From an uncultured Candidatus Poseidoniales archaeon (GTDB lineage: Archaea > Thermoplasmatota > Poseidoniia > Poseidoniales > Poseidoniaceae), in NCBI GenBank assembly GCA_964009815.1, contig CAXGJQ010000003.1, positions 1 to 32,573 on the forward strand: a stretch of DNA of 32,573 nucleotides, given 5' to 3'. Made by a program: the position numbers and the translations under genes. Positions 1,762 to 28,714 of the stretch are shown piece after piece; position 1 is the first letter of the stretch; every line of letters starts with the position of its first letter. The notes under the pieces are model-generated. The model was not told the DNA's origin, did not search any database, and saw only the letters and a program-made list of their open reading frames with translations.

Positions 1762-1787
1762 GTAAACGGTCCTATTTGACCGTTTAC
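1762..1787 (-). terminator. hairpin between the two paralogs, terminator-like
   Basis: Perfect 10-bp inverted repeat GTAAACGGTC-n6-GACCGTTTAC overlapping the TAA stop of 1784..3475, followed on the minus strand by a T-rich run (TTGTGTTTTGTGTT). Confidence 0.45.
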
Positions 1788-7637: not shown

Positions 7638-8095
7638 TCATCGCCTCCCTTGAATTCAACGCCCTCAAGCGTCATTTGAGAACGCATGTGTGCGATGGAA
7701 CGGTAGGAACCACCCTTGGCCTTCAGGTAGTACCGGCGGTACTGGGAAGGTTCAATCGTCTTGTCTTCTCGGAACTCTTTCAAGACACGGCGTTGGCTAC
7801 GAATGGTTCGCATCCAGCGGTTCTTGCGAGGGTTTCGGGCGTTGGCGGTACCTGCACGAGTCCCTTGACCCTTGCGACGTCCCTTGCGCTTCTGTTGAAG
7901 ACGGGCACGGGCACGGACACGGGAGGTCCCCTTGACCGGCTTTGCACGAATCCAGCCTTCGTCAATGAATTCACGGATATCGTCGGTCTGAACAGCTGAG
8001 GCGACTTGGTCAACGTAAAGAGGGTTGATCCAAACTCGGTTTTCTCCACACTTGAGCAGACGTGCTGCGATTCGCTTTTGATTGGTGATTTGCAT
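7634..8095 (-). CDS. rpl19e: 50S ribosomal protein eL19
   Basis: QKRIAARLLKCGENRVW, WMRTIR and YLKAKGG motifs. The ATG at 8095 overlaps the L32e stop (TGATG). Confidence 0.97.
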   Translation of the reverse strand: MQITNQKRIAARLLKCGENRVWINPLYVDQVASAVQTDDIREFIDEGWIRAKPVKGTSRVRARARLQQKRKGRRKGQGTRAGTANARNPRKNRWMRTIRSQRRVLKEFREDKTIEPSQYRRYYLKAKGGSYRSIAHMRSQMTLEGVEFKGGDE

Positions 8096-8730
8096 CAAAC
8101 ATCCCTCCGTCGGTTAAGGACACGAACTCCGAGTTCATCGGCTCGTGCGTAAATGTGCTCTCGCTTGCGACCACCAACACTGGCGCCAACTCGGGCGGCC
8201 TCTGTCTCAGGGTCAATGCTTTCGAGGTCAGCGGTGTTGTGGACCATCACTTCACGGAATCCAGAGGGGTGAAGGAAACGAGCAGCGGCGACTTTTCCGT
8301 GGCCGATTCGAACGAGCGAACCTCGGTACTTGTAGTTGCGTCGCTGTTTGTTGTCCATTCCATGAGGAGCTCGCCATCCAGAGCGAGACAATCGCTTGTA
8401 GCGGAACCACTCGGTTCGTCGGAAGGAAGGTGTCTTCTTCTTCTGAGCAGCACGAAGGGCCAAAGCCGCTTTCATGTCGTCGTCCAAAACAGGCTTTTGT
8501 TTGACCATGTATACATCGTCAGCCTCATCATCCCAATCTTCGTCATCCCATCCATCGTCATCGGATTCAGCCGCATCGGGCGCTTCATCCTCAACAACTT
8601 CATCGGCTTGACCGGCTGCTTCTTGCAGACGGGCGATGAGGTCGGATTTCTTTCCAGAGACAGGGAGGTCCTGCTCTTTGAGCAACTCCTTGAGTTGCGC
8701 AACAGTCATTGATTCGTAATCTTCTGTCAT
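8095..8730 (-). CDS. rpl32e: 50S ribosomal protein eL32 with N-terminal SAP domain and acidic linker
   Basis: C-terminal L32e motifs (PSFRRTEW, WRAPHGMDNK, HPSGFREVMVHN) and N-terminal SAP signature TVAQLKELLKEQDLPVSGKKSDLIARL. ATG at 8730 follows SD GGAGTGA. Confidence 0.95.
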   Translation of the reverse strand: MTEDYESMTVAQLKELLKEQDLPVSGKKSDLIARLQEAAGQADEVVEDEAPDAAESDDDGWDDEDWDDEADDVYMVKQKPVLDDDMKAALALRAAQKKKTPSFRRTEWFRYKRLSRSGWRAPHGMDNKQRRNYKYRGSLVRIGHGKVAAARFLHPSGFREVMVHNTADLESIDPETEAARVGASVGGRKREHIYARADELGVRVLNRRRDV

Positions 8731-8735
8731 TTCAA

Positions 8736-9278
8736 TCACTCCTTGTCAAGCAGGTAAATACCATCCTGGAAGACACGTCGGTCTCGCTTCTTTACGGTCG
8801 TGCATCGCTCAATGTTCGCAGCGGTTTGACCCACGGCTTCCTTGTCGATGCCCGACACGGTGACTTCAGTTTTGTTGGACACCTTGACAGTAACGTTGTC
8901 AAGGATGTGCGCTGTTCGTGGAACTCGCTCACCAAAGTAGTTGTTGACTTGGAAGGTGTTGCCGTTCACAGCAAGGGTCATGGGGAAGTGAGAGTAGAAG
9001 GCTTTGAGGTTGTACGTAAAGCCATCCGTGACGCCTTTCACCATGTTGTTGAGGTGGGCGTTCCAAGTTCCTGCAAGAGCTCGTTGCTTGCGACGTGGAA
9101 GGTCCACTCGCACGATGAGTCCAGCCCCGTCTTGGAAGAGTTGGATCACGTCGCTTTCAAAAGTGCGGTGAAGGGAGCCTTTCGGTCCCGTGATGGTCAC
9201 GACGCCATCTTCGCTGATGTTGGCGGAAACGCCCTCAGGGATGGTTACGGTGTGTTCGATTCTGTCGAGTTTTGCCAT
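8736..9278 (-). CDS. rpl6: 50S ribosomal protein uL6
   Basis: GPKG, YSHFPM, NYFGER and DRRVFQDGIY motifs. Confidence 0.98.
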   Translation of the reverse strand: MAKLDRIEHTVTIPEGVSANISEDGVVTITGPKGSLHRTFESDVIQLFQDGAGLIVRVDLPRRKQRALAGTWNAHLNNMVKGVTDGFTYNLKAFYSHFPMTLAVNGNTFQVNNYFGERVPRTAHILDNVTVKVSNKTEVTVSGIDKEAVGQTAANIERCTTVKKRDRRVFQDGIYLLDKE

Positions 9279-17699: not shown

Positions 17700-17850
17700 T
17701 TTTCTACAGCGCAGTGGCCCCACCGTTGGGGGGCGTACGAGGGCTCATACAGCGTCGAAGCCGTGACACGGAAGCGCATTCCCACGAGCGGGGAATGTGC
17801 CAGTTGGGGTCCTCGGGGGATGGCCCAGTGTGTCTGGCTACTCACCTTTG
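17700..17850 (-). ncRNA. structured 5' leader of the rpl3 operon (candidate cis-regulatory RNA)
   Basis: Non-coding GC-rich segment with at least four hairpins and an enclosing AGCC/GACAC...GTGTC/GGCT stem, located between a TATA box and the rpl3 SD. Confidence 0.5.
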
Positions 17851-17871
17851 AGCACCCCTCCGACTTACAAC

Positions 17872-17892
17872 CCGTATATATGCGGTTCGGTT
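17872..17892 (-). promoter_or_regulatory. TATA box of the ribosomal protein operon promoter
   Basis: CATATATAC on the minus strand (TATATA at 17875-17880), the clearest TATA element in this GC-rich intergenic region. Confidence 0.55.
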
Positions 17893-18033
17893 CAGGACGC
17901 CGAGGGGATGCGTGGGACACAATGGCAGTTGAAGGCCTTCAAACCTTTCCGAAATAAAGCCGGCGGTTTGAGTTCAAGTGAACCGTCACCTCTCCACATC
18001 ATCCTTTTGAACCCTAGACCAAACCTTCCCTCC

Positions 18034-20640
18034 ATGCCTCAGGTCGTTCATCCTCTGCTCAGGGAGGGAGTGGATGCTCGAGGCTATCAACTTCGGTCGT
18101 TAGAGCGTGCTCTCTCGTTTTCAAGCCTGATGGTTATGCCCACGGGATTTGGAAAGACCGCCGTGGAATGGATGGCCATGGCCGAATTTTTACGCAACGG
18201 CTCGGAAAAAATTGTCCTCATTGCTCCGACCACAGGACTGGTTGACCAGCAACGAACCATGGCGATTGAACGCTTGAACATCGACCCTGCGCGCATTGTT
18301 GCCTACACGGGCGAGACTGGACCTGAAAAGCGGAAGACCATTTGGGACCAAGCAACGGTCGTCATGGCCACACCGCAAGTGATACGAAACGATGCGATGA
18401 GTGGAGTGATTGATCTCGCGGCGGTAGACCTGCTCATTTTCGATGAAGCCCACCACGCTACCGGGAACCACGCCTACGCCCAGGTTGGAAACCTGTATCA
18501 GCGTACCAATCCTTCCGGGCGGGTCCTCGCCGCCACCGCAAGTCCTGGCTCAAACCTTCGAAACATCAACGCTGTACGTACAAACCTCAACGCTCACAAT
18601 TTGGACTTGTGTAAGCGCACGGACCCTCTGCTCAGCGCTTACGATGTGGACATGAAGATTCACACCCATCCTCTGGATTTACCGGAATCATTGAACACGC
18701 TCATCGCCCCACTTCGGGCGCACTTCAACGAGGAAGTAGCCCATCTCCAACGGCAAGGATTTATCCCGAAAAAGGAGTACATCGGGAGCAACGACATCGA
18801 GCGAGCACAACAAAGTGCCAGCCGAGCGATTCAACAACGAGACGTTCGAGGTTATGATGCCGCGCGAAGGGTGGCTGACCTTCGACGCATGCACATTCTG
18901 ATGAACCTCATGCAAACGCAAGGAACCAAAGTTGCTCAAGCCTTCCTAAATCGAGCAGAAGAGGAGGGCAGGAGCGGTCGGAAAACCAACCGAATGCTGG
19001 CGCTTCCCGTGGTTCACCAGCTCAGGCTTGCGCTCAACGACCTTGAGGAACTTCATCCAAAAGCGGCCCTCGTCGACTCACTCGTGGTCAAGGAACTGGT
19101 TGAAAAACCAGAGGGGAAAGTCCTCATCTTTACCGAGTACAGAGACTCTGTAGCCCGCTTGGTTTCCTTGCTCAATGTCCATGACGGTGTCGAAGCAGAC
19201 GCCTTCATTGGCCAGTCCTCACGTGGAACCCAAAAAGGCATGACGCAAAAGCAACAACTTGCTCAACTCCAACGCTTCCGAAGCGGTGAAATCAATGTCC
19301 TTGTGGCCACCTCCGTAGGCGAGGAGGGGTTGGATGTACCCGCCGCAGACTTGGTGGTGCTCTACGAACCCGTACCCAGTGCAGTGCGAGCCATTCAACG
19401 CCGAGGACGAACGGCACGCCAACGGGCAGGTTCGGTTCACGTGCTCATTGCGAAGAACACCCGAGATGCCTATGTGCACCGTGCGTCAGAACGCCAAGAG
19501 GAAAACATGCATCGCTTGATGGGGCGTTTGGTACGGCAGAAACAATTGAATGAAACCTACGTTGTTAACGATCAAGCCCTCGATGCGTTTTCCATAGAGA
19601 CGGACGGAAAAACGGTCCCAGCCAAAACCTATCTTGAAGAGGATTTGGCCAAATACGCCCAACAAAAAACGGCTGATGAAAATCCTATAGAACGAAATAC
19701 TTCGAACAGAAAAAACACCGCAAGGGTTGCCCCGGACCTTCGTGCCGACCAACTTCGACCACAGGCTCAATCCACCCTCTTTGCCTTTGGACAAGAGGAG
19801 AAGGAACCCCTCCAGCGCCTTGACCACCAAGCGGTTGAAGCCGTCCTCAACGCTGCTGACCGTGAAATCGTCAACCTCAACGAGGTGGATGGAAAAGAAA
19901 ACACCATCTACATCGACCACAGAGAAGGCCGCTCAACCCTACCTGGCTACCTCCAAGGACTCGGTTTTCAAACGATGTTCACGCAACTCCCATGCGGCGA
20001 CATCCGCCTTTCAGAACGCGTGCTCATCGAGCGAAAAACGGCCAGAGATCTTCTGGAGTCGATAAAATCTGGCCGACTTCTCAACCAGTGTCGCAGTCTA
20101 AAAGCGAGCGCTCAACGTCCTCTTTTGTTGATTGAAACGGGTGGCGAATCACAGTACAGCGTCCATCCAAATGCCGTACTGGGAGCGCTCGCTCACCTCA
20201 CGCTCGACCTCGGCATCCCTGTCATGATGGTCAAGGGGCCATTGGAAGCAGCTCACTTCATCGCTGTTGCAGCCCAACGAGAGCATGATGCCTTGGAGCG
20301 ATTGCACGGATTCCTCACCACCACCGAAAAGCATGATCGTGATCTCAAAGCCTCCATTTCCGTCGCTCGCCGTGAATTGCAAAGCATCGTTGACCAACCT
20401 GAGCAGCAGCATCCATGGTTGGACAACCACGAACAACATCTTCGTCGATGCTACGAGCATGCCATTGAACCCATCGTGAGCCAGCATGAGCACCTTGCCG
20501 AGGTCTTCCTAGCAGCTTCGCCTTCACTGGGTCGGCTCTTTGCTGCTCGGGAAGAAGACTTCGTGGAGATGGCTGGATGTTCCCTTGATGAGGCATCGGC
20601 CGTCGTGGCCATCCTTCAACAGACCCTCAAGAGCCAATAA
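18034..20640 (+). CDS. hef: Hef: SF2 (FANCM/MPH1-like) helicase fused to an ERCC4/XPF nuclease
   Basis: Helicase motifs PTGFGKT, DEAH, TAS, TSVGEEGLD and QRRGRTAR; nuclease motifs IDHRE and GD...IERK..D; C-terminal HhH-like helices. Start placed at MPQVVHPLL (18034) rather than 17797. Confidence 0.94.
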   Translation: MPQVVHPLLREGVDARGYQLRSLERALSFSSLMVMPTGFGKTAVEWMAMAEFLRNGSEKIVLIAPTTGLVDQQRTMAIERLNIDPARIVAYTGETGPEKRKTIWDQATVVMATPQVIRNDAMSGVIDLAAVDLLIFDEAHHATGNHAYAQVGNLYQRTNPSGRVLAATASPGSNLRNINAVRTNLNAHNLDLCKRTDPLLSAYDVDMKIHTHPLDLPESLNTLIAPLRAHFNEEVAHLQRQGFIPKKEYIGSNDIERAQQSASRAIQQRDVRGYDAARRVADLRRMHILMNLMQTQGTKVAQAFLNRAEEEGRSGRKTNRMLALPVVHQLRLALNDLEELHPKAALVDSLVVKELVEKPEGKVLIFTEYRDSVARLVSLLNVHDGVEADAFIGQSSRGTQKGMTQKQQLAQLQRFRSGEINVLVATSVGEEGLDVPAADLVVLYEPVPSAVRAIQRRGRTARQRAGSVHVLIAKNTRDAYVHRASERQEENMHRLMGRLVRQKQLNETYVVNDQALDAFSIETDGKTVPAKTYLEEDLAKYAQQKTADENPIERNTSNRKNTARVAPDLRADQLRPQAQSTLFAFGQEEKEPLQRLDHQAVEAVLNAADREIVNLNEVDGKENTIYIDHREGRSTLPGYLQGLGFQTMFTQLPCGDIRLSERVLIERKTARDLLESIKSGRLLNQCRSLKASAQRPLLLIETGGESQYSVHPNAVLGALAHLTLDLGIPVMMVKGPLEAAHFIAVAAQREHDALERLHGFLTTTEKHDRDLKASISVARRELQSIVDQPEQQHPWLDNHEQHLRRCYEHAIEPIVSQHEHLAEVFLAASPSLGRLFAAREEDFVEMAGCSLDEASAVVAILQQTLKSQ

Positions 20641-21487
20641 GGCGGACACGGGTTCGCAATTGAGCGAGTCGGTCGGGATAAAACCCGAGAGCAAAGGCCA
20701 CGATTTCAGAGAGGTGGCACACCGGCACCGTGGTGTTCTTGCCACTGACTCGACCTGCTTTGGATTGGTATGAGTCGAGGTTGACGTGTGAAACGGTGCA
20801 TGCGCTCACGACCAGGTCGGCACCCGACTGGATGGCGTCCGAAAGAACCGCCGCCGTCATGGCAAGCGATGAGTCTTCAAGCGTGAGCATGGACGTCGAG
20901 CCAACGCTCATGCACTTCGATTCGTAATCAATGGGGGTACCGCCCAAGGCTTCGATCAATTGTTCCATGTACGTCGGCATGAACGGGTCATCGCCAGCAC
21001 AGGCACCTTCACGCTGCATGTCAGGACCGTAATAGCCTGCGATGTTCATCTTGAGAGGGTTTTTGACAGCGTCTCGCACTTTATCGAGACCAATCTCTTC
21101 AACGAGGTAGTGAAGCAAATGCCATGATTGGATTTCTCCGGTGTATTCGACCTTGGAGGTGCGGGCGACGAGGTTGTTGACGGTACTGGCGTACACAGGG
21201 TCGCGGCCCATGTCTTGGGCCGTGTTGCACATGATGGCGTGACTTGTTGCGCATGTCGTCATCACGTCAAGGCCCTGGGCTTCGGCCAGCGCAAGGTTGC
21301 GAGCGACAAGTGCATCCTGTAGTTTTGGCGTGGCTTGCTTGATGACGTTTCCACCATCACTGCTGGCACGTGGAATCTCAACCAGTTGAATGTTGAGGGC
21401 ACGGCACAGGGGCTGAATGCAATCTTCGACCTCTGCAGCACCAGCGCGGGCTACGTTTCCAGGGTAGTATGCCACCTTTGCCATCAT
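20627..21487 (-). CDS. HdrB/SdhE-like (CCG-domain fold) protein with degenerate Cys motifs
   Basis: 286 aa, collinear with HdrB/SdhE (YYPG, ARNLALAE, HLLHYL, PLKMNIAGYYG, GADLVVSAC, NLDSYQ, LALG-type end), but both CCG motifs are replaced. Own SD GAGGTGA; 6 bp after the upstream gene. Confidence 0.85.
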   Translation of the reverse strand: MMAKVAYYPGNVARAGAAEVEDCIQPLCRALNIQLVEIPRASSDGGNVIKQATPKLQDALVARNLALAEAQGLDVMTTCATSHAIMCNTAQDMGRDPVYASTVNNLVARTSKVEYTGEIQSWHLLHYLVEEIGLDKVRDAVKNPLKMNIAGYYGPDMQREGACAGDDPFMPTYMEQLIEALGGTPIDYESKCMSVGSTSMLTLEDSSLAMTAAVLSDAIQSGADLVVSACTVSHVNLDSYQSKAGRVSGKNTTVPVCHLSEIVAFALGFYPDRLAQLRTRVRLIGS

Positions 21488-21493
21488 TTCACC

Positions 21494-23464
21494 TCAGAAC
21501 CGTTGGTCAATTTCATTGAAGAGGCTGACGACCTCGTGGTAATTCTGAACACGGCTGTTGAACATCTTGGGAATTCGTCCAAGACCGGCGGGTGGAACAA
21601 GCAACGCTTGCAAACCACGGATTGGCGGGCCACCGTTTCGTGTGAAGGCCAAGGCCATGCGAGCAGATACGCCGCTGAAGACGTTGCCGATCAAGCCCAA
21701 GGGGCCAAGCACCTGGCGGTAGAGGGTGGTTTCGTTCACATTACCAGACCACTTGACACTGCGACCGTACCACTTGACAAGGCGGCCGGATTTTCCTGCG
21801 TATCGGGACTGGTTGAGGAGCACACCTCGGGCTTCATTGAGGGCCCGTGCAGCCAAGCGACCGTCTTCGCCATAGCGCATGAGGCTGGCGTGGTCAGCTT
21901 CAGACCATACGCCGTCTTTTTCCTGCAACGAGTTCAAAATGCCGCGACGCTGCTTTTCTGAAGTACGTGGGTCAAGGACGCGGAGCCATTGTTGGAAATG
22001 CACGCCTGGACCCTCGTAATGTTGGTCGTGAGGGAGGGAATCCGACATGGCTTGAATGAGGTGGAAGGACAGCACGTCGCCGGCTTGGTGAAGCGCGGTT
22101 GCTGCAGCCGAATCCATCGTGCCCATGGCCTGTCCGGAAGGAAGGCGTTCTCCCTCCCTGGGGTCGGTTCGAATCCAAGGTTCAGCACGGCTGCGGTGGC
22201 TTTCGTAGCGGCTGGTGTCGACCACAAGGTCGCGCACGACAGGGTGGCCCGGGAGGGGTTCGATACGAACACGCCCGCCGTCTTTTGCCAAATCTGCGAT
22301 TCGAGCACAGTCGGCGAGGACAATGCGCCCATTGACTCGGACACCGGTGGTGGGCGTCCCAGCCGAGCTGCCTCGGCGGAAGGCAAGACTGCCGTCGACA
22401 TCCTGTTGCATCGTCATCAAGAGGTCTTGGACGGTTGCGTGGCCAGGAACACTGCACGTCAAGGTATCCCACCCTGAGTCGGCGGCCTCAGGACAGTACC
22501 GGAACACCTCGAGAGTGATGGTCATGGCTTCCTTTGCGATGATGCCCGGTGCGAAGTCGCCTTCAACGACATCGTCATCGTCGCCAGCACCAAATGCCTT
22601 CATCTCCTCAAGAAGTTCAACTTGAAGCGTTCCTGATTCATCAACACAGGCGAGAAGCGGGAGGGCTTCTTCGACCCAAATCTTCCAAGGTGGTTCGAAA
22701 TCAACATCGCATTCCTGGATGGGGTGAGCTTCTGTTCCGCCAAGCGCTACGAGTTTGTTGTTCCAGTCATGACCCGCCTTGCAGAATTCGTCGTAGGCGG
22801 TGTCGCCGATGGCGCACACCGAGAAGTGAGTCGAGCCGAGGGCAGGGCCGTTGGCATTGATGGCGTTCCACATAGCATCAGCGTTGTCCGGCATTTCGCC
22901 TTCGCCCCAAGTTGAGGTGATGATCATGACACGCTTCATCGTCGCCAGTCGGGCGGGGTCCAAACCGTCCATGTCGACAATGTTCGGCTCGAGCCCGTAA
23001 TTGGCTGCGAGTTTGGCCGTCTTTTCAGCGAGTCCAGCGGCATTGCCAGTTTGAGAGCCAAACAGGATATTGATGGAGCGGTCGCCAGCGAAAACAGCAT
23101 TCAACGCTTCTGAGACACCTGCGGCGGGCGCTACAGACGCAGCCGCAACCGGTGCAGCGGCCTCTACGGCGGCAGGAGCGGCTTCTACAGCCTCATCAGC
23201 GGCCCCATCGGAGACCAGTTCGTACTTGATGACTTCAACTGGACAAGCTTCGGCCGCTTCAATGATGATATCGCCGAGTTCGGCCCCGATTCCATCCACC
23301 AGGAGCGAACCAGCGACGTTGCGGTCAACGACGCCATCGGTGCGTACGGCTGCAAGAATTTCCGAACTCTCGTCGGTCACCACGAAGACTTCGGGACAGA
23401 TGTCCTGGCAAGCATCGCAGGTGATACAGTCTTCGTCAATCCATACTTTTGCGACGACTGCCAT
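21494..23464 (-). CDS. ferredoxin-flavodoxin-SdhB/FrdB-like fusion protein
   Basis: aa 1-83 single-cluster ferredoxin (CITCDAC..CP...ACP); Ala/Pro linker; aa ~129-271 flavodoxin (GSQTGNA, TSTWGEGE, GDTAYDEFC); aa ~314-656 SdhB-like (FRY, LAFR, VNG, IEPLPGHPVVRDLVVD, GP, DPR, GVW) lacking cluster cysteines. Confidence 0.88.
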   Translation of the reverse strand: MAVVAKVWIDEDCITCDACQDICPEVFVVTDESSEILAAVRTDGVVDRNVAGSLLVDGIGAELGDIIIEAAEACPVEVIKYELVSDGAADEAVEAAPAAVEAAAPVAAASVAPAAGVSEALNAVFAGDRSINILFGSQTGNAAGLAEKTAKLAANYGLEPNIVDMDGLDPARLATMKRVMIITSTWGEGEMPDNADAMWNAINANGPALGSTHFSVCAIGDTAYDEFCKAGHDWNNKLVALGGTEAHPIQECDVDFEPPWKIWVEEALPLLACVDESGTLQVELLEEMKAFGAGDDDDVVEGDFAPGIIAKEAMTITLEVFRYCPEAADSGWDTLTCSVPGHATVQDLLMTMQQDVDGSLAFRRGSSAGTPTTGVRVNGRIVLADCARIADLAKDGGRVRIEPLPGHPVVRDLVVDTSRYESHRSRAEPWIRTDPREGERLPSGQAMGTMDSAAATALHQAGDVLSFHLIQAMSDSLPHDQHYEGPGVHFQQWLRVLDPRTSEKQRRGILNSLQEKDGVWSEADHASLMRYGEDGRLAARALNEARGVLLNQSRYAGKSGRLVKWYGRSVKWSGNVNETTLYRQVLGPLGLIGNVFSGVSARMALAFTRNGGPPIRGLQALLVPPAGLGRIPKMFNSRVQNYHEVVSLFNEIDQRF

Positions 23465-23601
23465 TGGAAGACCTCATGCTCACGCTCTGTGAGTATTCTT
23501 TGCCAGCCTTCAATGGCCTTTGAAGGTTATTATCAAACCACGAGCCAAAAAGGCTTACTGTGGTTCGTTTTTTGCCACTTTTTTTAGCATTGTGAAAGAC
23601 A

Positions 23602-25224
23602 TCACATATGGAAGTCGCCCATGTCGCCCATGCCTTCACCCATGGGGACACCCTTTGACGAAATCACATCGTCGATGCGCAAAATCATGATGGCGGTTTC
23701 CGTCGCCGATTGAATGGCCTGTTCAACCACACGTAGTGGTTCAACAACGTTGCCTTCCTTCATGTCAACCACGCCGCCTTCATACACGTTGATGCCAGCG
23801 TGACCCTGACCATCGGCATGGGCCTTGCGCAGTTCAATCAGCGTAGTGACGGGGTCGAGGCCAGCGTTTTCTGCCAGCGTGCGTGGAATGATTTCAAGGG
23901 CAGAGGCAAACGCTTCAATGGCCATTTGCTCTCGGCCGCCAACGGTTTCAGCGTACGTTCGCAAGTCGCGGGAAAGGGCAGCAAGTACGCTGCCGCCTCC
24001 AGTCAACACAGCTCCATCTTCCCAAGCGACCGAGACAACACCAACAGCGTCGTCGAAGGCTCGTCGAATCTCGTCGACCACGTGCTCAGTTCCTCCGCGC
24101 AGGAGGACAGAGACTGACTTGGCTTCAGGGCAGCCGGTGATGAAGGTCATATCGGAGTCGCCGATTTTCTTCTCCTCAACACGGGAGGCCTCACCAAGGT
24201 CATCCCCACTCATGTCTTCGAGGTTGGTGATGATGGTCCCGCCAGTGGCCTTTGCAAGGGCTTCCATGTCGGATTTCTTTGCTCGGCGGATGGCGAAAAT
24301 ACCTTTCTTGGAAAGGTAGTGTTGAGCGAGTTCGTCAATGCCTTTTTGGCAAACAAGAACGTTGGCACCTGCCTTTTCAATCGTATTCACGAGGTTTCGA
24401 ATGTAGTTTTCTTCTTCCTCGAGGAACAAGGCAAGTTGGTTCGGGTCGGTGATCTGAATCTTGGCGTCAACTTCGGTCTTCTTGACTTCAATGGCCGAAT
24501 TAACAAGGGCAATCTTAGCACCAGACACGCTCCGAGGCATGCCCGCATGCACGCGTTCTTTGTCCAGAAGAATGCCATCGATGAGGGAGGAATCTTTGAT
24601 GGAACCACCTTGACGCTTCTCAACCTTGATGTCGGAAAGGTCAACCATTCGGTCGCCGTCTTCAACCACGCCAACAGCGTTCACAGCACGAACACAAATG
24701 TCGGCCATGAAGGATTTGACAGCGCCGGCAGACTTGCCGGTGAGGGCGGTCTTGGCCACCTCTTGGAGAACAGAATCCTCATTTTCAGTAGAGATTCCGT
24801 GGCTTTCCATCAAGTCAATCGCTCGCTCAGCAGCAAGGCGGAAACCTTCGCAAATAACCGTCGGGTGAACGTTTTGTTCAATGAGGTCTTCACTTCGCTT
24901 GAGCAATTCACCGGAGAGAATGACCGCCGAGGTCGTTCCGTCAAAGCAATGTTGCTCCTGGGTTTTGGCAACTTCGATGATCATTTTTGCCGCTGGGTGC
25001 TCAATGTCCATCTCTTTGAGGATGGTGGCACCATCGTTGGTGATGACGACATCGCCCATTGAGTCGACCAGCATTTTGTCCATGCCTTTTGGACCAAGGG
25101 TGGAGCGGACGGCGTCAGCAACCGCCTTGGCGGCAGCGATGTTGTTGGATTGGGCCGTTCGGCCTCGTGTTCGTTGGGTGCCGTCTTTCAAAATGAAGAT
25201 GGGTGCTTGTCCGTTTCCATACAT
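23602..25224 (-). CDS. ths: thermosome subunit (group II chaperonin)
   Basis: STLGPKGMDKMLVD, ITNDGATIL, LRGGTEH and ILRIDDVI motifs, with a GM-rich tail. Start MYGNGQ at 25224 after SD GGAGGG. Confidence 0.98.
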   Translation of the reverse strand: MYGNGQAPIFILKDGTQRTRGRTAQSNNIAAAKAVADAVRSTLGPKGMDKMLVDSMGDVVITNDGATILKEMDIEHPAAKMIIEVAKTQEQHCFDGTTSAVILSGELLKRSEDLIEQNVHPTVICEGFRLAAERAIDLMESHGISTENEDSVLQEVAKTALTGKSAGAVKSFMADICVRAVNAVGVVEDGDRMVDLSDIKVEKRQGGSIKDSSLIDGILLDKERVHAGMPRSVSGAKIALVNSAIEVKKTEVDAKIQITDPNQLALFLEEEENYIRNLVNTIEKAGANVLVCQKGIDELAQHYLSKKGIFAIRRAKKSDMEALAKATGGTIITNLEDMSGDDLGEASRVEEKKIGDSDMTFITGCPEAKSVSVLLRGGTEHVVDEIRRAFDDAVGVVSVAWEDGAVLTGGGSVLAALSRDLRTYAETVGGREQMAIEAFASALEIIPRTLAENAGLDPVTTLIELRKAHADGQGHAGINVYEGGVVDMKEGNVVEPLRVVEQAIQSATETAIMILRIDDVISSKGVPMGEGMGDMGDFHM

Positions 25225-25304
25225 ACTGTTGCCCTCCGGCATGGTTGGCGAGGTTGCCACCGACTTGAACCCTACGCTTCGTCAGCGTCGTGCAAAAACA
25301 TGCC

Positions 25305-28300
25305 TCAAGGTTGGTTTTGTTCCAGCCATTGGTGCCCGTAGTGCTTCCACTGCTCCATGGTCCAACCAGCGGGCAAGCCACCTGCTGGGAGTGGAGGCGT
25401 GTTGTCTTCAGCCGCAGGCGCTGGCATCTCTGGTGCAGGAGCGGGTGCAGCCGCTGAGGCTGGCGAGGGCATTGAGGTTGGAATCGAAGGAGCAGCCGCG
25501 ACGGCACCGTATGTAGCCGCCAAACTGTCTTCGTAGCCATCTTCGCCCCAGTTAGCGTACTCGTCTTCCTCTTCCTCGGTGTTGAGAATGGAGAGGAGTA
25601 CAATCACGCCGCCGACGAGGATCAAGATGAATACACCCCAAAGGGCGATGACCTCAAGTTGGAAACCGGATTCATCCGACGTAGCCTCGACGTTGGAATC
25701 CAAGCGAACGAGGGTGACCTCCAACACTGCGTTAGCGGCATCGCTCACCGTTTCTGAGCGAGCCCAGACGGTCAGGTTCACCGTGAGTGAGTCGCCGTTG
25801 AGGTTCTTGAGTGAGGTTTCGGTGACATCAACCGTGATGGTGATTTCTTTGGTTTCCCCGGTGGCCAAAGTGAAGTCTTTGTCCAGTCGGGCAATGGACG
25901 AACTGAACCAATTGTTTCCTTCGCTTGCATCGAGGTCCATCACGACACGCTGACCTGTTGTGTATTGATTGACAATACGAACGGTCACCTCGTACTCGCC
26001 TTCCTCAACCACTTCGAGCGGCGGGATGGCGAAGATACGGAGCCAATCCTGTGAGCCAACCAAATAGACGGCCTCCCCTGTGGCACTGATGCTGCCGTCT
26101 GAGGTGCTGGTGGCAATGACTTGGAGGGGCAGGCTTCCTTCGGTGCCCTCCACAAAGGAAAATTCAACCGAAACGTTGTAGCTTGCTCCGATGTCAATTT
26201 CTGGCGTGTTGCCGCTGATGAGGTTGGTGAAAGCGGCGTTCATGCCAGTTGGTGCGTTCAACGTCATGGCAAAGCTGTCTGGATTGTTTCCATCGTTGCG
26301 GACTTCAAAGGACATCGTTTGGGGAAGGTCGCCCGGAATGTAGGATTGACCTGTTTCTTCATCGGAAACAAAGACGGCGGCCGTTTCAAGGATCTCAATG
26401 ATGAGTTCAATGGAGTCATACACCGTTTCGTCGTCTACGCTTGTCGCCGTGACGGTCACAGAATAGAATCCGGGGCTAAGTCCGATGGGCATGGCCAGTT
26501 GGACCACAATTGTGGACTCGCCATCCCATGCATCCAAAACTGGAGACTGGTCTGACGGGAGCGAGGCTTGCAAGCGCCAGTTGCTTTGACCGATGCTCAG
26601 ATTGTATTGCTCATCGTCGTTGCCAAGGTTGAACAGGTCAAGGTAGAGGGCTTTGGAAATGCCATTGGCAGCGCCGGAGAAGGTGTTTTCTTCAGCCACA
26701 ATTTCCACATGACGGAGAACTGGGACCTCGATGTTTCGAACCAACACATCCGTACCAAAGAGTGCCGTGCTGCATGACGGGCAAGTAGCACGGAGGTTGA
26801 AGGAGACCGTCCCAGGATTGGCCAATTCAGGTGAGGAGAGGTTCAACACCAAATCCACACGTTCACCCTTGTAGAGCGTGAGGGGGTTGGATTGAATGAC
26901 TCCAGTGTCGTTCTGAATGAGTCCAACCCAACCAGAATTGTCGGAAAAGGTCGTAGCGAGGTTGAACGCAGCATCTCGGTTTCCTGTGTTTTGAAGTCGG
27001 AAATTCACCAGCCCATAATCATCGGGCCCTATGGTCGCTGCGAAGAGCGGGACGGTAGAGGTCAACGCCACGCTGAACTGTTCGCTGACAGCCAAATCCA
27101 TGCCGATGCGGGCTTTTTCTCCAAGTTGAGCACTGCTGGCATCGGTGAGCCAGAGGTTCCAATCTTGTTGTTGCACCTCGGCCCCTGCGGGGACGGTCAA
27201 GTTGGCCCAAAACTCGATCGTTTTACCGGCACCGAGCGGTGGCATGATGACGTTTGTTCCGTGGCTGCTGCTGCCTTCAATGTCCATTCGGATGATGGGG
27301 AAAGGCACCATCCATGAGTCGTTGGTGACGTTGGTCTGAAGACGGATGGTGGCTGGGGCGTAGCCGTTATTGGTCAAGGTACAGTAGAGGTTCGCCATTT
27401 GATTTGGAGCGACGGTGTAGCCGTTAAGCGGGTTGTCGCACTGCATGTCGACGGTGTAGTCGGTGACACGGCTAACACCAAAGTGAACGAAATCATCAAC
27501 GTGGAAACCTTCGCTGGCGACACTGCTGTCAGAAGTGAACAAGACACTGAACGTGTAGGAACTGCCACCGAGGAACACCTCTGGGTTGGCGAGGTTGGGA
27601 ATTTGTTCCCACGTCACTTGTGGGTCCCACGAGAGGTTGGTCCACTGGCCTGGAGCAGCGCTGGGGTTTCCTTGGGAGATGTCCCATGAGACGGATTCAA
27701 AATTATCTTGAAGATTGCCTGAGCCTCGCCAAAGTTCCATGGAGACCGAATCGCCAGCCGCCATGCTCCCCCATGCTTGGAGGTGGAACTGGCTGGAAAC
27801 GAATTCGTTGGAGTAGAACAAAATTCGGCAGATACCCACGCCGTAGACGTTCTGGGTCAGTCCGGTGTCGGGTGCGTCGGTATCGCACGTGTTGGAGGTG
27901 GCAACACGAGCATGAACGAGCCTCGTTGCTTCGGCGTTTGAGGGGTAGTTACTTCCCGGGGAAGAATGACGCCAGTGATCGTTTCCTTTGGCACTGCTCG
28001 TGGACTCCGTTTGCCAGGAACCCTGAGACTGTGCATCTCCTCCTGCAGCCGGGTACTTGCCCGAGAAGAAGGTTGGATTGCCGTTGACCGCTGGGGATTC
28101 CATCGAAAGGGCATTCACGGCGACTGGGACGGTCTTGTCGCGCTGGTCATTGGTGTTCTTGTCGTCGTCGGCAAAGTTCACGGTGGCACGAATGATGAGA
28201 CCGCCGGACAAATCGTTGGTCGTGGTGTTAAGGATGGAGTGAGCAGCCGAAGGCGTCCATTCGATGACCTGGTTGAAGGATTGGCCTCCTGTCAGCGGAT

Positions 28301-28643
28301 TGGTGGTAAAATCAAACGATTCCATCACGAAACCAACGGGGTGAACAATGTCCACAGAAACCGGTGCAGCATCGCCGATACCTGAGGCCCCAAAGCGCTG
28401 CACTGAAACCGTAATCTCAATCTCATCGTCCTGGAAGATGTAATCCATGACCGTCCCGTCGGATTGCACCCATTGGTCGGCAGGAGCCGTGGCGTTTCCA
28501 ACCGTGATGGATTTCACGGTGAAATCGTCGTTTGTTCCGCCGCGCCCGGAGGCGGCTTCGGCAGGAACGACCAAATTCATAGCAAGCGTTTGCATCAAGA
28601 GCAGCATAACAATGGTGAAGGGCATCATTCGGCGCATGGACAT
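25305..28643 (-). CDS. large secreted, C-terminally anchored surface protein with tandem Ig-like (CARDB/NEW3-like) repeats
   Basis: Signal peptide ending AEA; a Trp-rich beta domain ending FTSDSSVASEGFHVDD; repeated N-x-G-N modules (NNGY, NTGN, NLGN, NDGN); a TM helix; an acidic and Pro/Ala linker; terminal GLPAGWTMEQWKHYG. Start is 28643 or 28637. Confidence 0.88.
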   Translation of the reverse strand: MSMRRMMPFTIVMLLLMQTLAMNLVVPAEAASGRGGTNDDFTVKSITVGNATAPADQWVQSDGTVMDYIFQDDEIEITVSVQRFGASGIGDAAPVSVDIVHPVGFVMESFDFTTNPLTGGQSFNQVIEWTPSAAHSILNTTTNDLSGGLIIRATVNFADDDKNTNDQRDKTVPVAVNALSMESPAVNGNPTFFSGKYPAAGGDAQSQGSWQTESTSSAKGNDHWRHSSPGSNYPSNAEATRLVHARVATSNTCDTDAPDTGLTQNVYGVGICRILFYSNEFVSSQFHLQAWGSMAAGDSVSMELWRGSGNLQDNFESVSWDISQGNPSAAPGQWTNLSWDPQVTWEQIPNLANPEVFLGGSSYTFSVLFTSDSSVASEGFHVDDFVHFGVSRVTDYTVDMQCDNPLNGYTVAPNQMANLYCTLTNNGYAPATIRLQTNVTNDSWMVPFPIIRMDIEGSSSHGTNVIMPPLGAGKTIEFWANLTVPAGAEVQQQDWNLWLTDASSAQLGEKARIGMDLAVSEQFSVALTSTVPLFAATIGPDDYGLVNFRLQNTGNRDAAFNLATTFSDNSGWVGLIQNDTGVIQSNPLTLYKGERVDLVLNLSSPELANPGTVSFNLRATCPSCSTALFGTDVLVRNIEVPVLRHVEIVAEENTFSGAANGISKALYLDLFNLGNDDEQYNLSIGQSNWRLQASLPSDQSPVLDAWDGESTIVVQLAMPIGLSPGFYSVTVTATSVDDETVYDSIELIIEILETAAVFVSDEETGQSYIPGDLPQTMSFEVRNDGNNPDSFAMTLNAPTGMNAAFTNLISGNTPEIDIGASYNVSVEFSFVEGTEGSLPLQVIATSTSDGSISATGEAVYLVGSQDWLRIFAIPPLEVVEEGEYEVTVRIVNQYTTGQRVVMDLDASEGNNWFSSSIARLDKDFTLATGETKEITITVDVTETSLKNLNGDSLTVNLTVWARSETVSDAANAVLEVTLVRLDSNVEATSDESGFQLEVIALWGVFILILVGGVIVLLSILNTEEEEDEYANWGEDGYEDSLAATYGAVAAAPSIPTSMPSPASAAAPAPAPEMPAPAAEDNTPPLPAGGLPAGWTMEQWKHYGHQWLEQNQP

Positions 28644-28714
28644 CAGCAAACTTGCCCAACACGATTGAGCATAAGAAGGTCGCCTTCTGATGGGCTATGC
28701 AAACAGGCCAAAAA

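What the first reader, a model, noticed from the sequence alone, without database searches (positions are those of the whole stretch)
20627..23464. Two-gene module: Fe-S-stripped SdhB/SdhE scaffold carrying intact ferredoxin and flavodoxin
Seen: two tightly coupled genes (6 bp apart, SD intact, no frameshift). Gene 1 has a ferredoxin and a flavodoxin with ligand motifs intact, fused to an SdhB-like body. Gene 2 is HdrB/SdhE-like. Both respiratory-type parts keep their structural motifs but have lost cluster cysteines in parallel. Established: SdhB plus a CCG-domain subunit (SdhE/HdrB-like) builds type-E succinate:quinone oxidoreductases (Sulfolobales SdhABEF, Campylobacter MfrABE, and a similar pairing in cyanobacteria). 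No flavoprotein (sdhA) gene is adjacent here. Inference: this is a repurposed pseudo-subunit pair. It may hetero-oligomerise with an active Sdh complex encoded elsewhere, or sit on the membrane alone, and tether two low-potential carriers on flexible linkers. I know of no described system with this architecture. It is the best candidate in the window.
Basis: partly seen in the sequence, partly recalled or inferred. Interest (0 to 1): 0.88.

Follow-up and report, generated by a model that had tools for sequence, protein, structure and literature searches.

The report
Cluster-less complex II relic with tethered carriers
Marine Group II archaea all keep and express a gene pair descended from two iron-sulfur subunits of succinate dehydrogenase that has lost its internal iron-sulfur wire and instead carries a ferredoxin and a flavodoxin on flexible tethers, an undescribed and possibly iron-saving way to build an electron-transfer module.

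Summary
Gene 1 (21494-23464, minus strand, 656 aa) reads ferredoxin, linker, flavodoxin, linker, SdhB-like body. Gene 2 (20627-21487, 286 aa) is HdrB/SdhE-like and starts 6 nt after gene 1's stop.

The body has none of the 11 SdhB cluster cysteines. Gene 2 keeps 2 of the 10 CCG cysteines.

This is not decay:
- Gene 1 was found in 151 of 151 genomes of the order.
- Gene 2 lies directly downstream in 49 of 50 loci examined.
- dN/dS is about 0.03-0.08.
- Metatranscriptome contigs span the junction between the two genes.
- The two proteins are predicted to bind (ipSAE 0.88, best control 0.00).

The closest cysteine-intact relatives are long-form SdhB and SdhE in type-E sdhA-sdhB-sdhE operons.

New points:
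- The N-terminal CCG motif of gene 2 is fully intact in 8 of 22 genera, so cluster loss was stepwise.
- The carrier domains vary between lineages (Fd-Fld, Fld-Fld, Fld only, Fd-Fd, Fd only).
- Every genus examined also has an orphan SdhA paralog that lacks the catalytic residues, a candidate third subunit. Its binding was not tested.

Function remains inferred: most likely a redox-inert platform holding swinging carrier domains.

The parts
23210..23464 (-). Gene 1, aa 1-85: single-cluster [4Fe-4S] ferredoxin domain (CxxCxxC...CP)
   Evidence: Pfam Fer4_13 at aa 9-80, 35.8 bits against cut-off 24.5. C13, C16, C19 and C74-P75 are invariant in 16 orthologs. pLDDT 66-85.
23087..23209 (-). Gene 1, aa 86-126: Ala/Pro/Glu-rich linker 1
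   Evidence: pLDDT 25-27 over aa 87-115. Length and sequence vary in the alignment. Composition read from the sequence.
22586..23086 (-). Gene 1, aa 127-293: flavodoxin (FMN) domain of the CysJ/CPR/MioC kind
   Evidence: Pfam Flavodoxin_1 1e-23. Best solved relatives are FMN domains of sulfite reductase, NOS and CPR. The FMN loops are invariant. pLDDT 79-93.
22529..22585 (-). Gene 1, aa 294-312: acidic linker 2
   Evidence: pLDDT below 50 over aa 295-309.
22190..22528 (-). Gene 1, aa 313-425: SdhB N-terminal (2Fe-2S type) fold without its four cysteines
   Evidence: Pfam Fer2_3 8e-13. Foldseek matches SdhB chains at E 1e-10. 0 of 4 ligand columns hold Cys.
21902..22189 (-). Gene 1, aa 426-521: SdhB C-terminal (two-cluster) helical domain without its seven cysteines. 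An invariant Ser and an invariant Glu stand at two former ligand positions.
   Evidence: NCBIfam SdhB models match up to aa 521. These residues lie in the predicted interface with gene 2's product.
21494..21901 (-). Gene 1, aa 522-656 plus the stop codon: conserved C-terminal extension shared with long-form (type-E-like) SdhB. It is predicted to clamp the gene 2 product.
   Evidence: Profile hits to cysteine-intact 300-325 aa SdhB proteins reach profile positions 285-298 of 349. Interface residues 234-294 and 330-346 in body numbering. pLDDT is low when gene 1 is modelled alone.
21488..21499 (-). Gene junction: stop codon, 6 nt, start codon, with a GAGGTGA Shine-Dalgarno-like string
   Evidence: Read directly from the sequence. 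RNA-library contigs bridge the junction in 4 of 4 runs laid.
20627..21487 (-). Gene 2 (286 aa): HdrB/SdhE-like protein with two CCG-type halves. It keeps 2 of 10 motif cysteines (C79, C230).
   Evidence: Predicted partner of the gene 1 body.
23465..23601 (-). 137-nt spacer between the thermosome gene and gene 1. It holds an oligo-T run, an AT-rich TATA-like string and a GAGGT string 8 nt before the ATG. It is a possible separate promoter (inference only).
   Evidence: Read directly from the sequence. Not tested.

Best explanation
The two genes encode a heterodimer, here called B'E'. It descends from the iron-sulfur subunit (long-form SdhB) and the CCG subunit (SdhE/HdrB-like) of a type-E succinate:quinone oxidoreductase.

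In the Marine Group II order (Poseidoniales) the fixed Fe-S relay inside this pair has been removed. All three SdhB clusters are gone in every ortholog examined. The C-terminal CCG site is gone in every ortholog. The N-terminal CCG site survives in only some genera.

The folded core is kept as a platform. The redox cofactors now sit on one or two small carrier domains fused to B' through disordered linkers. In this window these are a [4Fe-4S] ferredoxin and an FMN flavodoxin.

Inferred mechanism. The core is itself redox-inert. It docks to a partner, and perhaps peripherally to the membrane. It holds the carrier domains so that they swing between a donor and an acceptor, as the FMN domain does in cytochrome P450 reductase or CysJ. 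This replaces about 11 to 20 protein-bound iron atoms with one cluster and a flavin, or with flavin alone in the Fld-only lineages.

A likely third subunit is the orphan SdhA paralog lacking the catalytic residues (A'). It appears to keep the FAD-binding motifs, and its FAD could exchange electrons with the tethered FMN.

Shown here: descent, cysteine loss, conservation, presence in RNA libraries, predicted B'-E' binding, disordered tethers. Inferred: the swinging-arm mechanism, the iron-sparing rationale and the A' partnership.
For: Conservation:
- Gene 1 was found in 151 of 151 genomes sampled from the order, in 22 of 22 genera.
- Gene 2 lies directly downstream on the same strand in 49 of 50 loci. 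The fiftieth is cut by a contig end.
- dN/dS against 7 congeners is 0.038-0.064 for gene 1 and, in the 5 of those 7 comparisons where dS could be computed, 0.026-0.075 for gene 2. No domain of gene 1 exceeds 0.14.

Descent:
- A profile search of 1.84 billion representative proteins found full-length cysteine-free relatives. After a score gap came 300-325 aa cysteine-intact SdhB proteins that share the extension.
- sdhA-sdhB-sdhE operons occur in other Thermoplasmatota.
- Foldseek matches the body model to SdhB chains at E 1e-10 over about 250 columns.

Binding:
- ipSAE was 0.88, 0.90 and 0.88 in three runs. The best of 3 controls was 0.00. This mark was reached by 58 of 80 solved complexes and 2 of 110 mismatched pairs. 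The runs share at least 78% of their contacts, and the partner's pLDDT is at least 87.
- The interface uses the former cluster loops of both proteins and the extension.

Tethers:
- pLDDT is 25-27 for aa 87-115 and below 50 for aa 295-309, between well-folded Fd and Fld domains.

Carrier modularity:
- Fd-Fld in the window; Fld-Fld; Fld only; Fd-Fd and Fd only.

Stepwise cluster loss:
- The N-terminal CCG motif is complete in 9 of 25 orthologs (8 of 22 genera). It keeps 2 of 5 cysteines in 9 orthologs and 1 of 5 in 7. The C-terminal motif keeps 1 of 5 in 25 of 25.

RNA:
- Metatranscriptome contigs at least 99% identical, from 4 runs in 3 studies, cover both genes. They bridge the junction in 4 of 4 runs.

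A':
- It is a 539-aa SdhA paralog, 31% identical to the genome's canonical SdhA.
- It lacks the covalent-FAD His, the catalytic Arg and the substrate-binding Arg in all 21 orthologs aligned.
- It keeps the GxGxxA/G and GLYAAG FAD motifs.
- It was found in 146 of 151 genomes of the order. In the phylum sample it occurs at ortholog level only in that order. The body profile has the same distribution.

A 2-oxoacid:ferredoxin oxidoreductase, which would need such a carrier, is encoded in the genome.
Against: - No donor, acceptor or substrate is identified, and nothing here measures a cofactor.
- The N-terminal CCG cluster site persists in 8 of 22 genera. C79, C230 and H234 of E' are invariant. The core may therefore not be redox-inert everywhere.
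- The B'-E' complex score may reflect memory of solved HdrB-HdrC or SdhB-type complexes (caveat printed).
- The single-chain models are only of moderate confidence (mean pLDDT 68 and 66).
- The A' link rests only on shared phyletic range and parallel loss of key residues. A' is never adjacent to the pair in the genomes where both positions are known on one contig (G003, G027). No fused form was found (weak evidence).
- dS is saturated (1.5-2.8), so the dN/dS values are approximate.
- Iron sparing is an argument from ecology and was not tested.
- A stand-alone flavodoxin also exists in the genome, so the tethered carriers are not the only ones.
Confidence: 0.45

Rival explanations
1. The core is still an enzyme. 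E' keeps a catalytic site fed directly by the tethered flavodoxin. The site would be the N-terminal non-cubane cluster where it survives, and elsewhere a cysteine pair or small metal site built from the invariant C79, C230 and H234. It would reduce a disulfide (the HdrB chemistry) or a quinone (the role proposed for SdhE). The complex would then be a ferredoxin/flavodoxin-dependent reductase, not a passive platform.
For: - C79, C230 and H234, plus Y240-Q241 and other residues of E', are invariant in 19 orthologs.
- The first Cys of each CxxC is kept in 25 of 25 orthologs, while its neighbours are lost.
- The N-terminal CCG motif is complete in 8 of 22 genera.
- SdhE is thought to hold the quinone site and to bind a [4Fe-4S] cluster and a zinc site (PMC2754724: abstract and Introduction read).
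- The flavodoxin is the domain next to the body in every Poseidoniales locus examined.
Against: - The only complete cluster site is dispensable in 14 of 22 genera.
- The C-terminal CCG motif was identified by mutagenesis as the cluster site in HdrB (as cited in the Introduction of PMC2754724). That motif is degenerate in all 25 orthologs.
- C230 and H234 are not among the confidently placed interface residues.
- No coordinates were available to test whether C79 and C230 lie close together.
- Two relatives (P0250, P0251) place a ferredoxin, not a flavodoxin, next to the body.
Confidence: 0.25
2. B'E' are pseudo-subunits that join the active succinate dehydrogenase (SdhC-SdhA-SdhB, encoded on contig C4) and lend it two low-potential carriers.
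For: An intact sdhC (272 aa), sdhA (617 aa) and sdhB (256 aa, all cluster cysteines present) set exists in the same genome. B' keeps the SdhB structural motifs.
Against: - The active enzyme has its own SdhB and a hydrophobic anchor of another type, so the B and anchor positions are already filled.
- B' and E' descend from a different (type-E) lineage. B' is about 25-26% identical to type-E SdhB.
- A dedicated SdhA paralog lacking the catalytic residues exists.
- No test of binding to SdhA was run.
Confidence: 0.08
3. A non-electron-transfer role. The core acts as a structural, assembly or regulatory protein, and the carrier domains serve as redox or iron sensors rather than as a relay. One example would be a chaperone-like factor for Fe-S or flavin enzymes.
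For: - All catalytic and relay features of the ancestral subunits are gone.
- The locus sits among housekeeping genes (thermosome, Hef, ribosomal protein operon) in conserved synteny across the order.
Against: - The synteny is order-wide for the whole region, so it carries little functional signal.
- The cofactor-binding residues of both carrier domains are invariant.
- Carriers are swapped for other carriers, never for unrelated domains. This fits a need for electron transfer itself.
Confidence: 0.1
4. Recently decayed pseudogenes or an assembly artefact.
For: None beyond the missing cysteines.
Against: - Open frames are intact in 151 of 151 genomes down to about 40% identity.
- dN/dS is about 0.03-0.08.
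- The replacement residues are themselves invariant: Ser and Glu in B' (30 of 30 each), and in E' Ser 25 of 25 at one former ligand column, Val 24 of 25 and Ser 24 of 25 at two others.
- RNA-library contigs cover both genes.
Confidence: 0.01

Closest known systems
Type-E succinate:quinone oxidoreductase (SdhABEF of Sulfolobus/Acidianus), the related MfrABE of Campylobacter/Wolinella, and thiol:fumarate reductase TfrAB
   Same: - SdhB with a C-terminal extension, followed by a two-CCG-domain subunit encoded directly downstream.
- No membrane-spanning anchor.
- The body's best NCBIfam hits among long-form models are PRK12576, PRK12577 and MFR SdhB. Gene 2 hits HdrB and MFR SdhE.
- Operons of this kind exist in the same phylum.
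   Different: - 0 of 11 SdhB cluster cysteines and 2 of 10 CCG cysteines are present here.
- All curated family cut-offs are missed.
- No sdhA gene is adjacent.
- Ferredoxin and flavodoxin domains are fused to the N-terminus.
- No SdhF-type gene was seen beside the pair.
Heterodisulfide reductase HdrB-HdrC (solved structures 5odc, 8rvv, 9sfi)
   Same: - Gene 2 aligns with HdrB over its full length at E about 1e-28 to 1e-31.
- By recalled knowledge of the Hdr structures, the ferredoxin-like domain of B' should meet E' as HdrC meets HdrB. The predicted interface uses the former cluster loops.
   Different: - Both non-cubane cluster sites are degenerate in this genus.
- No HdrA gene is present at the locus.
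- The organism is an aerobic heterotroph lineage and not a methanogen (recalled, not from a call).
Diflavin reductases and their relatives (CysJ, cytochrome P450 reductase, NOS reductase domain)
   Same: - The flavodoxin domain's nearest solved relatives are the FMN domains of these enzymes.
- They are the textbook case of an FMN domain that swings on a hinge between a donor flavin and an acceptor. This is the analogy for the proposed mechanism.
   Different: - No FNR-like FAD/NADPH domain is fused here.
- The platform is a complex II relic.
- The analogy concerns how it may work. It is not a claim of family membership.
CCG-domain proteins with one degenerate CCG motif
   Same: Degeneration of one CCG domain is known. 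The Introduction of PMC2754724 notes proteins in which the N-terminal CCG domain has lost conserved cysteines.
   Different: Here the C-terminal motif is degenerate in all orthologs. The N-terminal motif is degenerate as well in 14 of 22 genera, which leaves no complete motif.

Membership tests
SdhB, succinate dehydrogenase/fumarate reductase iron-sulfur subunit (long form, PRK12576/PRK12577 kind) | Two-domain SdhB fold: a plant-ferredoxin-like N-domain plus a helical two-cluster C-domain | tested here: met
   Pfam Fer2_3 8e-13. Foldseek top 30 hits are SdhB/FrdB chains, with E down to 1e-10, about 250 aligned columns and TM about 0.5 normalised by target length. The model has mean pLDDT 68.
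SdhB, succinate dehydrogenase/fumarate reductase iron-sulfur subunit (long form, PRK12576/PRK12577 kind) | Eleven cysteines that ligate the [2Fe-2S], [4Fe-4S] and third clusters | tested here: not met
   0 of 11 in the window. 2 of 330 cells across 30 relatives.
SdhB, succinate dehydrogenase/fumarate reductase iron-sulfur subunit (long form, PRK12576/PRK12577 kind) | Score above the curated family cut-off | tested here: not met
   PRK05950 74.4 bits against 228. PRK12576 71.9 against 344. TIGR00384 59.2 against 88.
SdhB, succinate dehydrogenase/fumarate reductase iron-sulfur subunit (long form, PRK12576/PRK12577 kind) | Encoded beside, and working with, a catalytic SdhA flavoprotein | tested here: not met
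   The neighbours are a thermosome and Hef, in conserved synteny. Whether it binds any SdhA-family protein was not tested.
SdhE/HdrB (two CCG domains, PF02754) | Full-length homology to HdrB/SdhE | tested here: met
   phmmer against solved HdrB chains gives E 6e-31 to 8e-28 over residues 4-275. TIGR03288 7e-38 and NF042965 4e-31.
SdhE/HdrB (two CCG domains, PF02754) | The CXnCCGXmCXXC motif present twice (10 cysteines) | tested here: not met
   2 of 10 in the window. In relatives the N-terminal motif is complete in 9 of 25 and the C-terminal motif in 0 of 25.
SdhE/HdrB (two CCG domains, PF02754) | Score above the curated family cut-off | tested here: not met
   TIGR03288 130.5 bits against 345. 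NF042965 108.5 against 500. The Pfam CCG domain is just over its cut-off, at 22.0 against 20.6.
Flavodoxin (PF00258) | Domain score above cut-off, and intact FMN phosphate and ring-binding loops | tested here: met
   84.4 bits against 25. The loops are invariant in 16 orthologs. FMN binding itself cannot be tested with these tools.
Single-cluster [4Fe-4S] ferredoxin (PF13370) | CxxCxxC...CP ligand set and domain score above cut-off | tested here: met
   35.8 bits against 24.5. C13, C16, C19 and C74-P75 are invariant. C23 is variable, as expected for a non-ligand.
Diflavin reductase (CysJ/CPR) | FMN domain fused to an FNR-like FAD/NAD(P)H domain | tested here: not met
   Only the FMN part matches (cysJ model positions 57-203 of 597). 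It is therefore not a member. The resemblance is functional only.

The most novel reading that the evidence does not exclude
Poseidoniales carry a complete 'ghost complex II'. All three subunits of an ancestral type-E succinate dehydrogenase survive as A', B' and E', with their catalytic residues and Fe-S relay removed. They have been rebuilt into a flavin-based electron machine (FAD in A', FMN on a tether, and an optional ferredoxin cluster). This machine would re-oxidise the ferredoxin or flavodoxin made by 2-oxoacid oxidoreductases and pass the electrons into the respiratory chain. The route could be a quinone site in E', or it could serve as the missing input module of the NuoEFG-less complex I. 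In this genome NuoD was found and NuoF was not (85% complete). It would be an iron-minimised respiratory module specific to the most abundant planktonic archaea.
Probability: 0.12. Interest if true: 0.9.

Novelty: new variant of a known kind. Interest (0 to 1): 0.72.

Why it matters
Marine Group II archaea are among the most abundant archaea in the surface ocean and are uncultured (recalled, not from a call). Their energy metabolism is therefore known only from gene lists, in which these genes are labelled 'flavodoxin domain-containing protein', 'SdhB-like' or 'HdrB' (source names).

The present analysis shows these labels are misleading. The pair cannot work as an Fe-S relay.

It is a rare, clean case of a respiratory Fe-S module that lost every internal cluster yet stayed under strong selection for the whole history of an order. 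The intermediate states are still alive in different genera: one cluster site kept, ferredoxin replaced by flavodoxin, flavin only.

That makes two questions testable. How can a fixed Fe-S wire be replaced by tethered carriers? Did iron scarcity drive that change?

It also flags a third orphan subunit (A') and would change metabolic reconstructions that count these genes as a second succinate dehydrogenase or as a heterodisulfide reductase.

Tried and rejected
1. Decay or pseudogene: rejected.

2. A second Fer2_3 hit on contig C70 as a possible paralog: it is the small subunit of a molybdenum hydroxylase (Fer2_2 plus a MoCoBD neighbour). It is unrelated.

3. CCG-domain hits on C46 and C35 (942- and 703-aa frames): these are cysteine-bearing large fusion proteins. 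I did not follow them, and they lie outside the finding.

4. Conserved neighbours as a functional clue: the whole region (large surface protein, thermosome, pair, Hef) is syntenic across the order. Synteny therefore says nothing specific.

5. Origin of A' by phylogeny: A' is monophyletic on a long stem. Its sister group is unresolved and a long-branch warning was given. No conclusion.

6. Rosetta-stone fusions of A': none among proteins of 945-2695 aa at E <= 1e-20. The tool itself calls this weak evidence.

7. ESM Atlas look-alikes of gene 2: only HdrB/CCG clusters, and no structure held. Nothing new.

8. Bacterial-type promoter and terminator scan: not applicable to an archaeon and uninformative.

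9. RNA cover. No contig of X1, X2 or X5 covers 23406-23572, between gene 1 and the thermosome gene. This is noted only as a possible hint of separate transcription, not as evidence. Depth figures from contigs were not used to rank genes.

10. Literature. Searches found no paper describing this architecture.
   - In PMC11237513 I read only the passages holding my search terms. None of them mentions this fusion.
   - For PMC2754724 I read the abstract and the Introduction.
   - Supplementary tables of Marine Group II pangenome papers were not seen and may list these genes.
   - The claim 'not described' rests on these four searches only.

12. Rows left out.
   - One search prints 35 of the 50 loci. 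L010-L024, close relatives, were skipped for brevity.
   - One search uses 7 congeners that I chose out of the 16 same-genus loci.
   - The 20 diverse loci and the 20 were chosen by me, one or two per genus, from the lists.

Full report
**What is there**

On the minus strand lie two ORFs. Gene 1 is at 21494..23464 (656 aa) and gene 2 at 20627..21487 (286 aa). Gene 1's stop codon and gene 2's ATG are separated by GGTGAA, and a GAGGTGA string overlaps the stop.

Gene 1 has four recognisable parts:
- A Fer4_13 single-cluster ferredoxin (aa 9-80).
- A Flavodoxin_1 domain (aa 133-254).
- A Fer2_3 SdhB N-domain (aa 317-420).
- NCBIfam SdhB models that extend the match to aa 521, far below their cut-offs.

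Gene 2 matches HdrB (TIGR03288, 7e-38) and the MFR SdhE anchor (4e-31), again below cut-off. It aligns with solved HdrB chains over residues 4-275 at E 6e-31 to 8e-28.

The neighbours are a Hef-type helicase/nuclease (17797..20640, plus strand) and a thermosome subunit (23602..25260, minus strand). Further along the window are SecY and a ribosomal protein operon. Sources that hold near-identical proteins name them as from Candidatus Poseidonia or Poseidoniales.

**Cysteine loss, counted**

I aligned 30 relatives of the body with 9 cysteine-intact SdhB references. The references were the genome's own canonical SdhB, three type-E SdhB from other Thermoplasmatota, and five long-form SdhB from the representative search.
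- Eleven columns hold Cys in 9 of 9 references.
- The window's protein has Cys at none of these columns.
- All 30 relatives together have Cys in 2 of 330 cells.
- Two former ligand positions are now an invariant Ser and an invariant Glu (30 of 30 each).

For gene 2, ten columns hold Cys in 3 of 3 type-E SdhE references. The window keeps two, C79 and C230, which are the first Cys of each CxxC.

Across 25 orthologs from 22 genera:
- The C-terminal motif keeps only that one Cys in 25 of 25.
- The N-terminal motif is complete in 9 of 25. These are 8 genera spread over all three families of the order.
- The N-terminal motif keeps 2 of 5 cysteines in 9 orthologs and 1 of 5 in 7 orthologs. The window's genus is in the last group.

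The SdhB clusters and the C-terminal CCG site were therefore lost before the order diversified. The N-terminal CCG site was lost later, and apparently more than once.

The carrier domains, by contrast, keep their ligands. In 16 full-length orthologs, C13, C16, C19 and C74-P75 of the ferredoxin are invariant, as are the three FMN loops of the flavodoxin.

**Not decay**

- Gene 1 was found in 151 of 151 genomes sampled from the order. That covers 58 of 58 high-quality genomes, 22 of 22 genera, and families at 74/74, 2/2 and 74/74. Identity goes down to about 40%.
- Gene 2 follows directly on the same strand in 49 of 50 loci examined. The fiftieth ends at a contig edge.
- Nei-Gojobori dN/dS against seven congeners is 0.038-0.064 for gene 1. 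For gene 2 it is 0.026-0.075 in the five of seven comparisons where dS could be computed. Every domain of gene 1 is at or below 0.14 where dS could be computed. dS is saturated (1.5-2.8), so these are rough values.
- Metatranscriptome contigs at least 99% identical, from four runs in three studies, cover both genes. They bridge the gene junction in 4 of 4 runs. Contigs cannot prove a single transcript, and DNA carry-over cannot be excluded.

**Descent**

I searched 1.84 billion representative proteins with a profile of the body (24 orthologs).
- 1796 hits reached E <= 1e-3 and 29 reached E <= 1e-30.
- The top hits are full-length cysteine-free relatives and their fragments.
- After a gap, at E about 1e-29, come 300-325 aa SdhB proteins with all clusters. 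They match the profile up to positions 285-298 of 349, so they share most of the C-terminal extension.
- NCBIfam places these among PRK12576, PRK12577 and MFR-type SdhB.

In a sample of 301 genomes of the phylum:
- The full-length body occurs only in the order's families (42/42 and 21/21).
- It was not found in 0 of 8 genomes of the sister family in the same class.
- Elsewhere only ordinary SdhB-level matches appear.

The best of those outside matches lie in sdhA-sdhB(302-316 aa)-sdhE(291-312 aa) operons. This is the type-E arrangement described in PMC2754724, of which I read the abstract and the Introduction.

An AlphaFold2 model of the body (mean pLDDT 68) matches SdhB/FrdB chains in the PDB as its first 30 Foldseek hits, with E down to 1e-10.

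**The two proteins as a pair**

Complex prediction used my own alignments of the body and of gene 2.
- ipSAE was 0.88, 0.90 and 0.88 in three runs, and the best of three controls was 0.00.
- This mark was reached by 58 of 80 solved complexes and by 2 of 110 mismatched pairs.
- The runs agree in at least 78% of their contacts, and the partner's pLDDT is at least 87.
- The tool warns that such a pass may come from likeness to solved complexes. HdrB-HdrC is an obvious candidate.

The confidently placed interface uses these parts:
- In B': the former third-cluster region (including the invariant Ser-Asp and Glu-x-Asp) and the C-terminal extension.
- In E': the two former CC(G) loops and the position of the first Cys of the second motif.

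The surfaces that once passed electrons from cluster to cluster are thus now protein-protein contacts. When gene 1 is modelled alone, the extension has low confidence. This fits a segment that folds onto E'.

**Tethers and modular carriers**

In the full-length model the ferredoxin (pLDDT 66-85) and the flavodoxin (79-93) are folded. Residues 87-115 have pLDDT 25-27 and residues 295-309 are below 50. Linker 1 is Ala/Pro/Glu-rich and linker 2 is acidic.

The N-terminal part differs between lineages:

| Form | Where seen |
|---|---|
| Fd-Fld | the window and most genera |
| Fld-Fld | several genera of family f3 and part of genus g2 |
| Fld only | 557 and 567 aa, starting about 90 nt (G011) and 30 nt (G135) after the thermosome gene, so there is no room for a lost domain |
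| Fd-Fd and Fd only | two representative proteins of unknown source |

Fld-only or Fld-Fld forms occur in genera whose sampled E' has an incomplete N-terminal motif (g12, g20, g21 and g22 within the same loci; for g14 and g21 the Fld-only genomes are not the ones whose E' I read). Where these go together, the whole complex would hold no Fe-S cluster at all.

Neither protein has a hydropathy peak typical of a membrane helix. The maximum 19-residue Kyte-Doolittle mean is 1.5 for gene 1 and 1.27 for gene 2.

**A third relic**

The genome encodes three SdhA-family proteins:
- The canonical SdhA, beside sdhC and sdhB on contig C4.
- An L-aspartate oxidase, above the TIGR00551 cut-off.
- An orphan of 539 aa on contig C1 (P0391). 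It is 31% identical to the canonical SdhA and lies below every curated cut-off.

In the orphan and in 20 orthologs from 20 further genera:
- The histidine that carries covalent FAD is missing.
- The catalytic arginine of the RGEGG motif is missing.
- The substrate arginine of the HGANRLG motif is missing.
- The N-terminal GxGxxA/G and the GLYAAG FAD motifs remain.
- Six genera also lack the C-terminal domain.

Its distribution matches that of the body:
- It was found in 146 of 151 genomes of the order at E <= 1e-40. The five genomes without a match are 84-94% complete.
- In the phylum sample, ortholog-level matches occur only in the order (42/42 and 20/21, sister family 0/8). Elsewhere only canonical SdhA matches appear, at E 1e-32 to 1e-45.

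Same range plus parallel loss of key residues makes it a natural candidate for the flavoprotein of the relic. Against this:
- It is not adjacent to the pair.
- No fusion was found.
- Its origin is unresolved in a tree.
- Binding was not tested.

**How it most likely works**

Shown:
- A conserved, expressed B'E' pair of type-E descent, without its Fe-S relay.
- Intact ligand motifs only in the tethered carrier domains.
- Predicted B'-E' contact through the former cluster surfaces.
- Disordered tethers.
- Interchangeable carriers.

Inferred:
- The core is a redox-inert platform.
- The carriers are swinging arms that shuttle electrons between a partner donor and acceptor, as in diflavin reductases. 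The FMN domains of those enzymes are the flavodoxin's nearest solved relatives.
- A' may supply an FAD.
- The change saves iron.

The genome has a 2-oxoacid:ferredoxin oxidoreductase that needs such an acceptor. It has a NuoD-type complex I subunit, and no NuoF was found in this 85%-complete assembly. It also has a stand-alone flavodoxin. These facts set the scene but prove no link.

The main rival is that E' is still catalytic. Its invariant C79, C230 and H234 and the surviving N-terminal cluster site in 8 genera point that way. The dispensability of that site in 14 genera points against it.

**Verdict**

Docking to the active Sdh is not supported.

I rate the finding a new variant of a known kind. 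All domains belong to known families. But a cluster-free SdhB/SdhE core with tethered carriers, fixed across an entire abundant archaeal order, was not found in four literature searches, and no source gives it more than a generic name.

Noticed in passing
G000 contig C1:51800-53416 (locus L060:961-2580, minus strand); outside the window: An orphan 539-aa SdhA paralog (P0391). It lacks the covalent-FAD His, the catalytic Arg and the substrate Arg, but keeps the FAD-binding motifs. It is conserved in 146 of 151 genomes of the order. At ortholog level it was not found outside the order in the phylum sample.
   Followed up: partly
Loci L047-L050, L101 (Fld-Fld); L103, L105 (Fld only); proteins P0250, P0251: The carrier part of gene 1 differs between lineages: ferredoxin replaced by a second flavodoxin, no second carrier at all, two ferredoxins, or one ferredoxin without a flavodoxin. 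The number of independent swaps was not counted on a tree.
   Followed up: partly
window 25305-28649 (minus strand): A 1114-aa ORF with a hydrophobic N-terminus, a hydrophobic segment near the C-terminus and a Pro/Ala-rich acidic tail. It looks like a large surface protein. A homolog lies upstream of the thermosome gene in 19 of the 20 diverse loci (cluster 4).
   Followed up: no
window 8095-8739 (minus strand): Ribosomal protein L32e carries an N-terminal SAP domain (Pfam). Separately, one cysteine-intact long-form SdhB from the representative search (P0301, 424 aa) has an N-terminal stretch that matches the start of an L32e model (NF009401, 1.4e-6). This suggests the same small DNA-binding-type module is fused to unrelated proteins.
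   Followed up: no
window 455-1759 and 1784-3475 (minus strand): Two long ORFs (434 and 563 aa) next to secY have no Pfam match at E <= 0.001.
   Followed up: no
G000 whole genome: A NuoD-type complex I subunit is present (contig C7). No NuoF (PF01512) was found in this 85%-complete assembly. One 2-oxoacid:ferredoxin oxidoreductase (contig C25) and one stand-alone flavodoxin (contig C179) are present.
   Followed up: no
Matches in family f3 genomes (for example G023, G011, G027): Many A' matches in family f3 are reported with one to three in-frame stop codons near residues 480-500 of the query. In the loci I read, the gene simply ends there, giving a shorter C-terminus, and the tool reads through the stop. 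I did not check every case for real frameshifts.
   Followed up: partly
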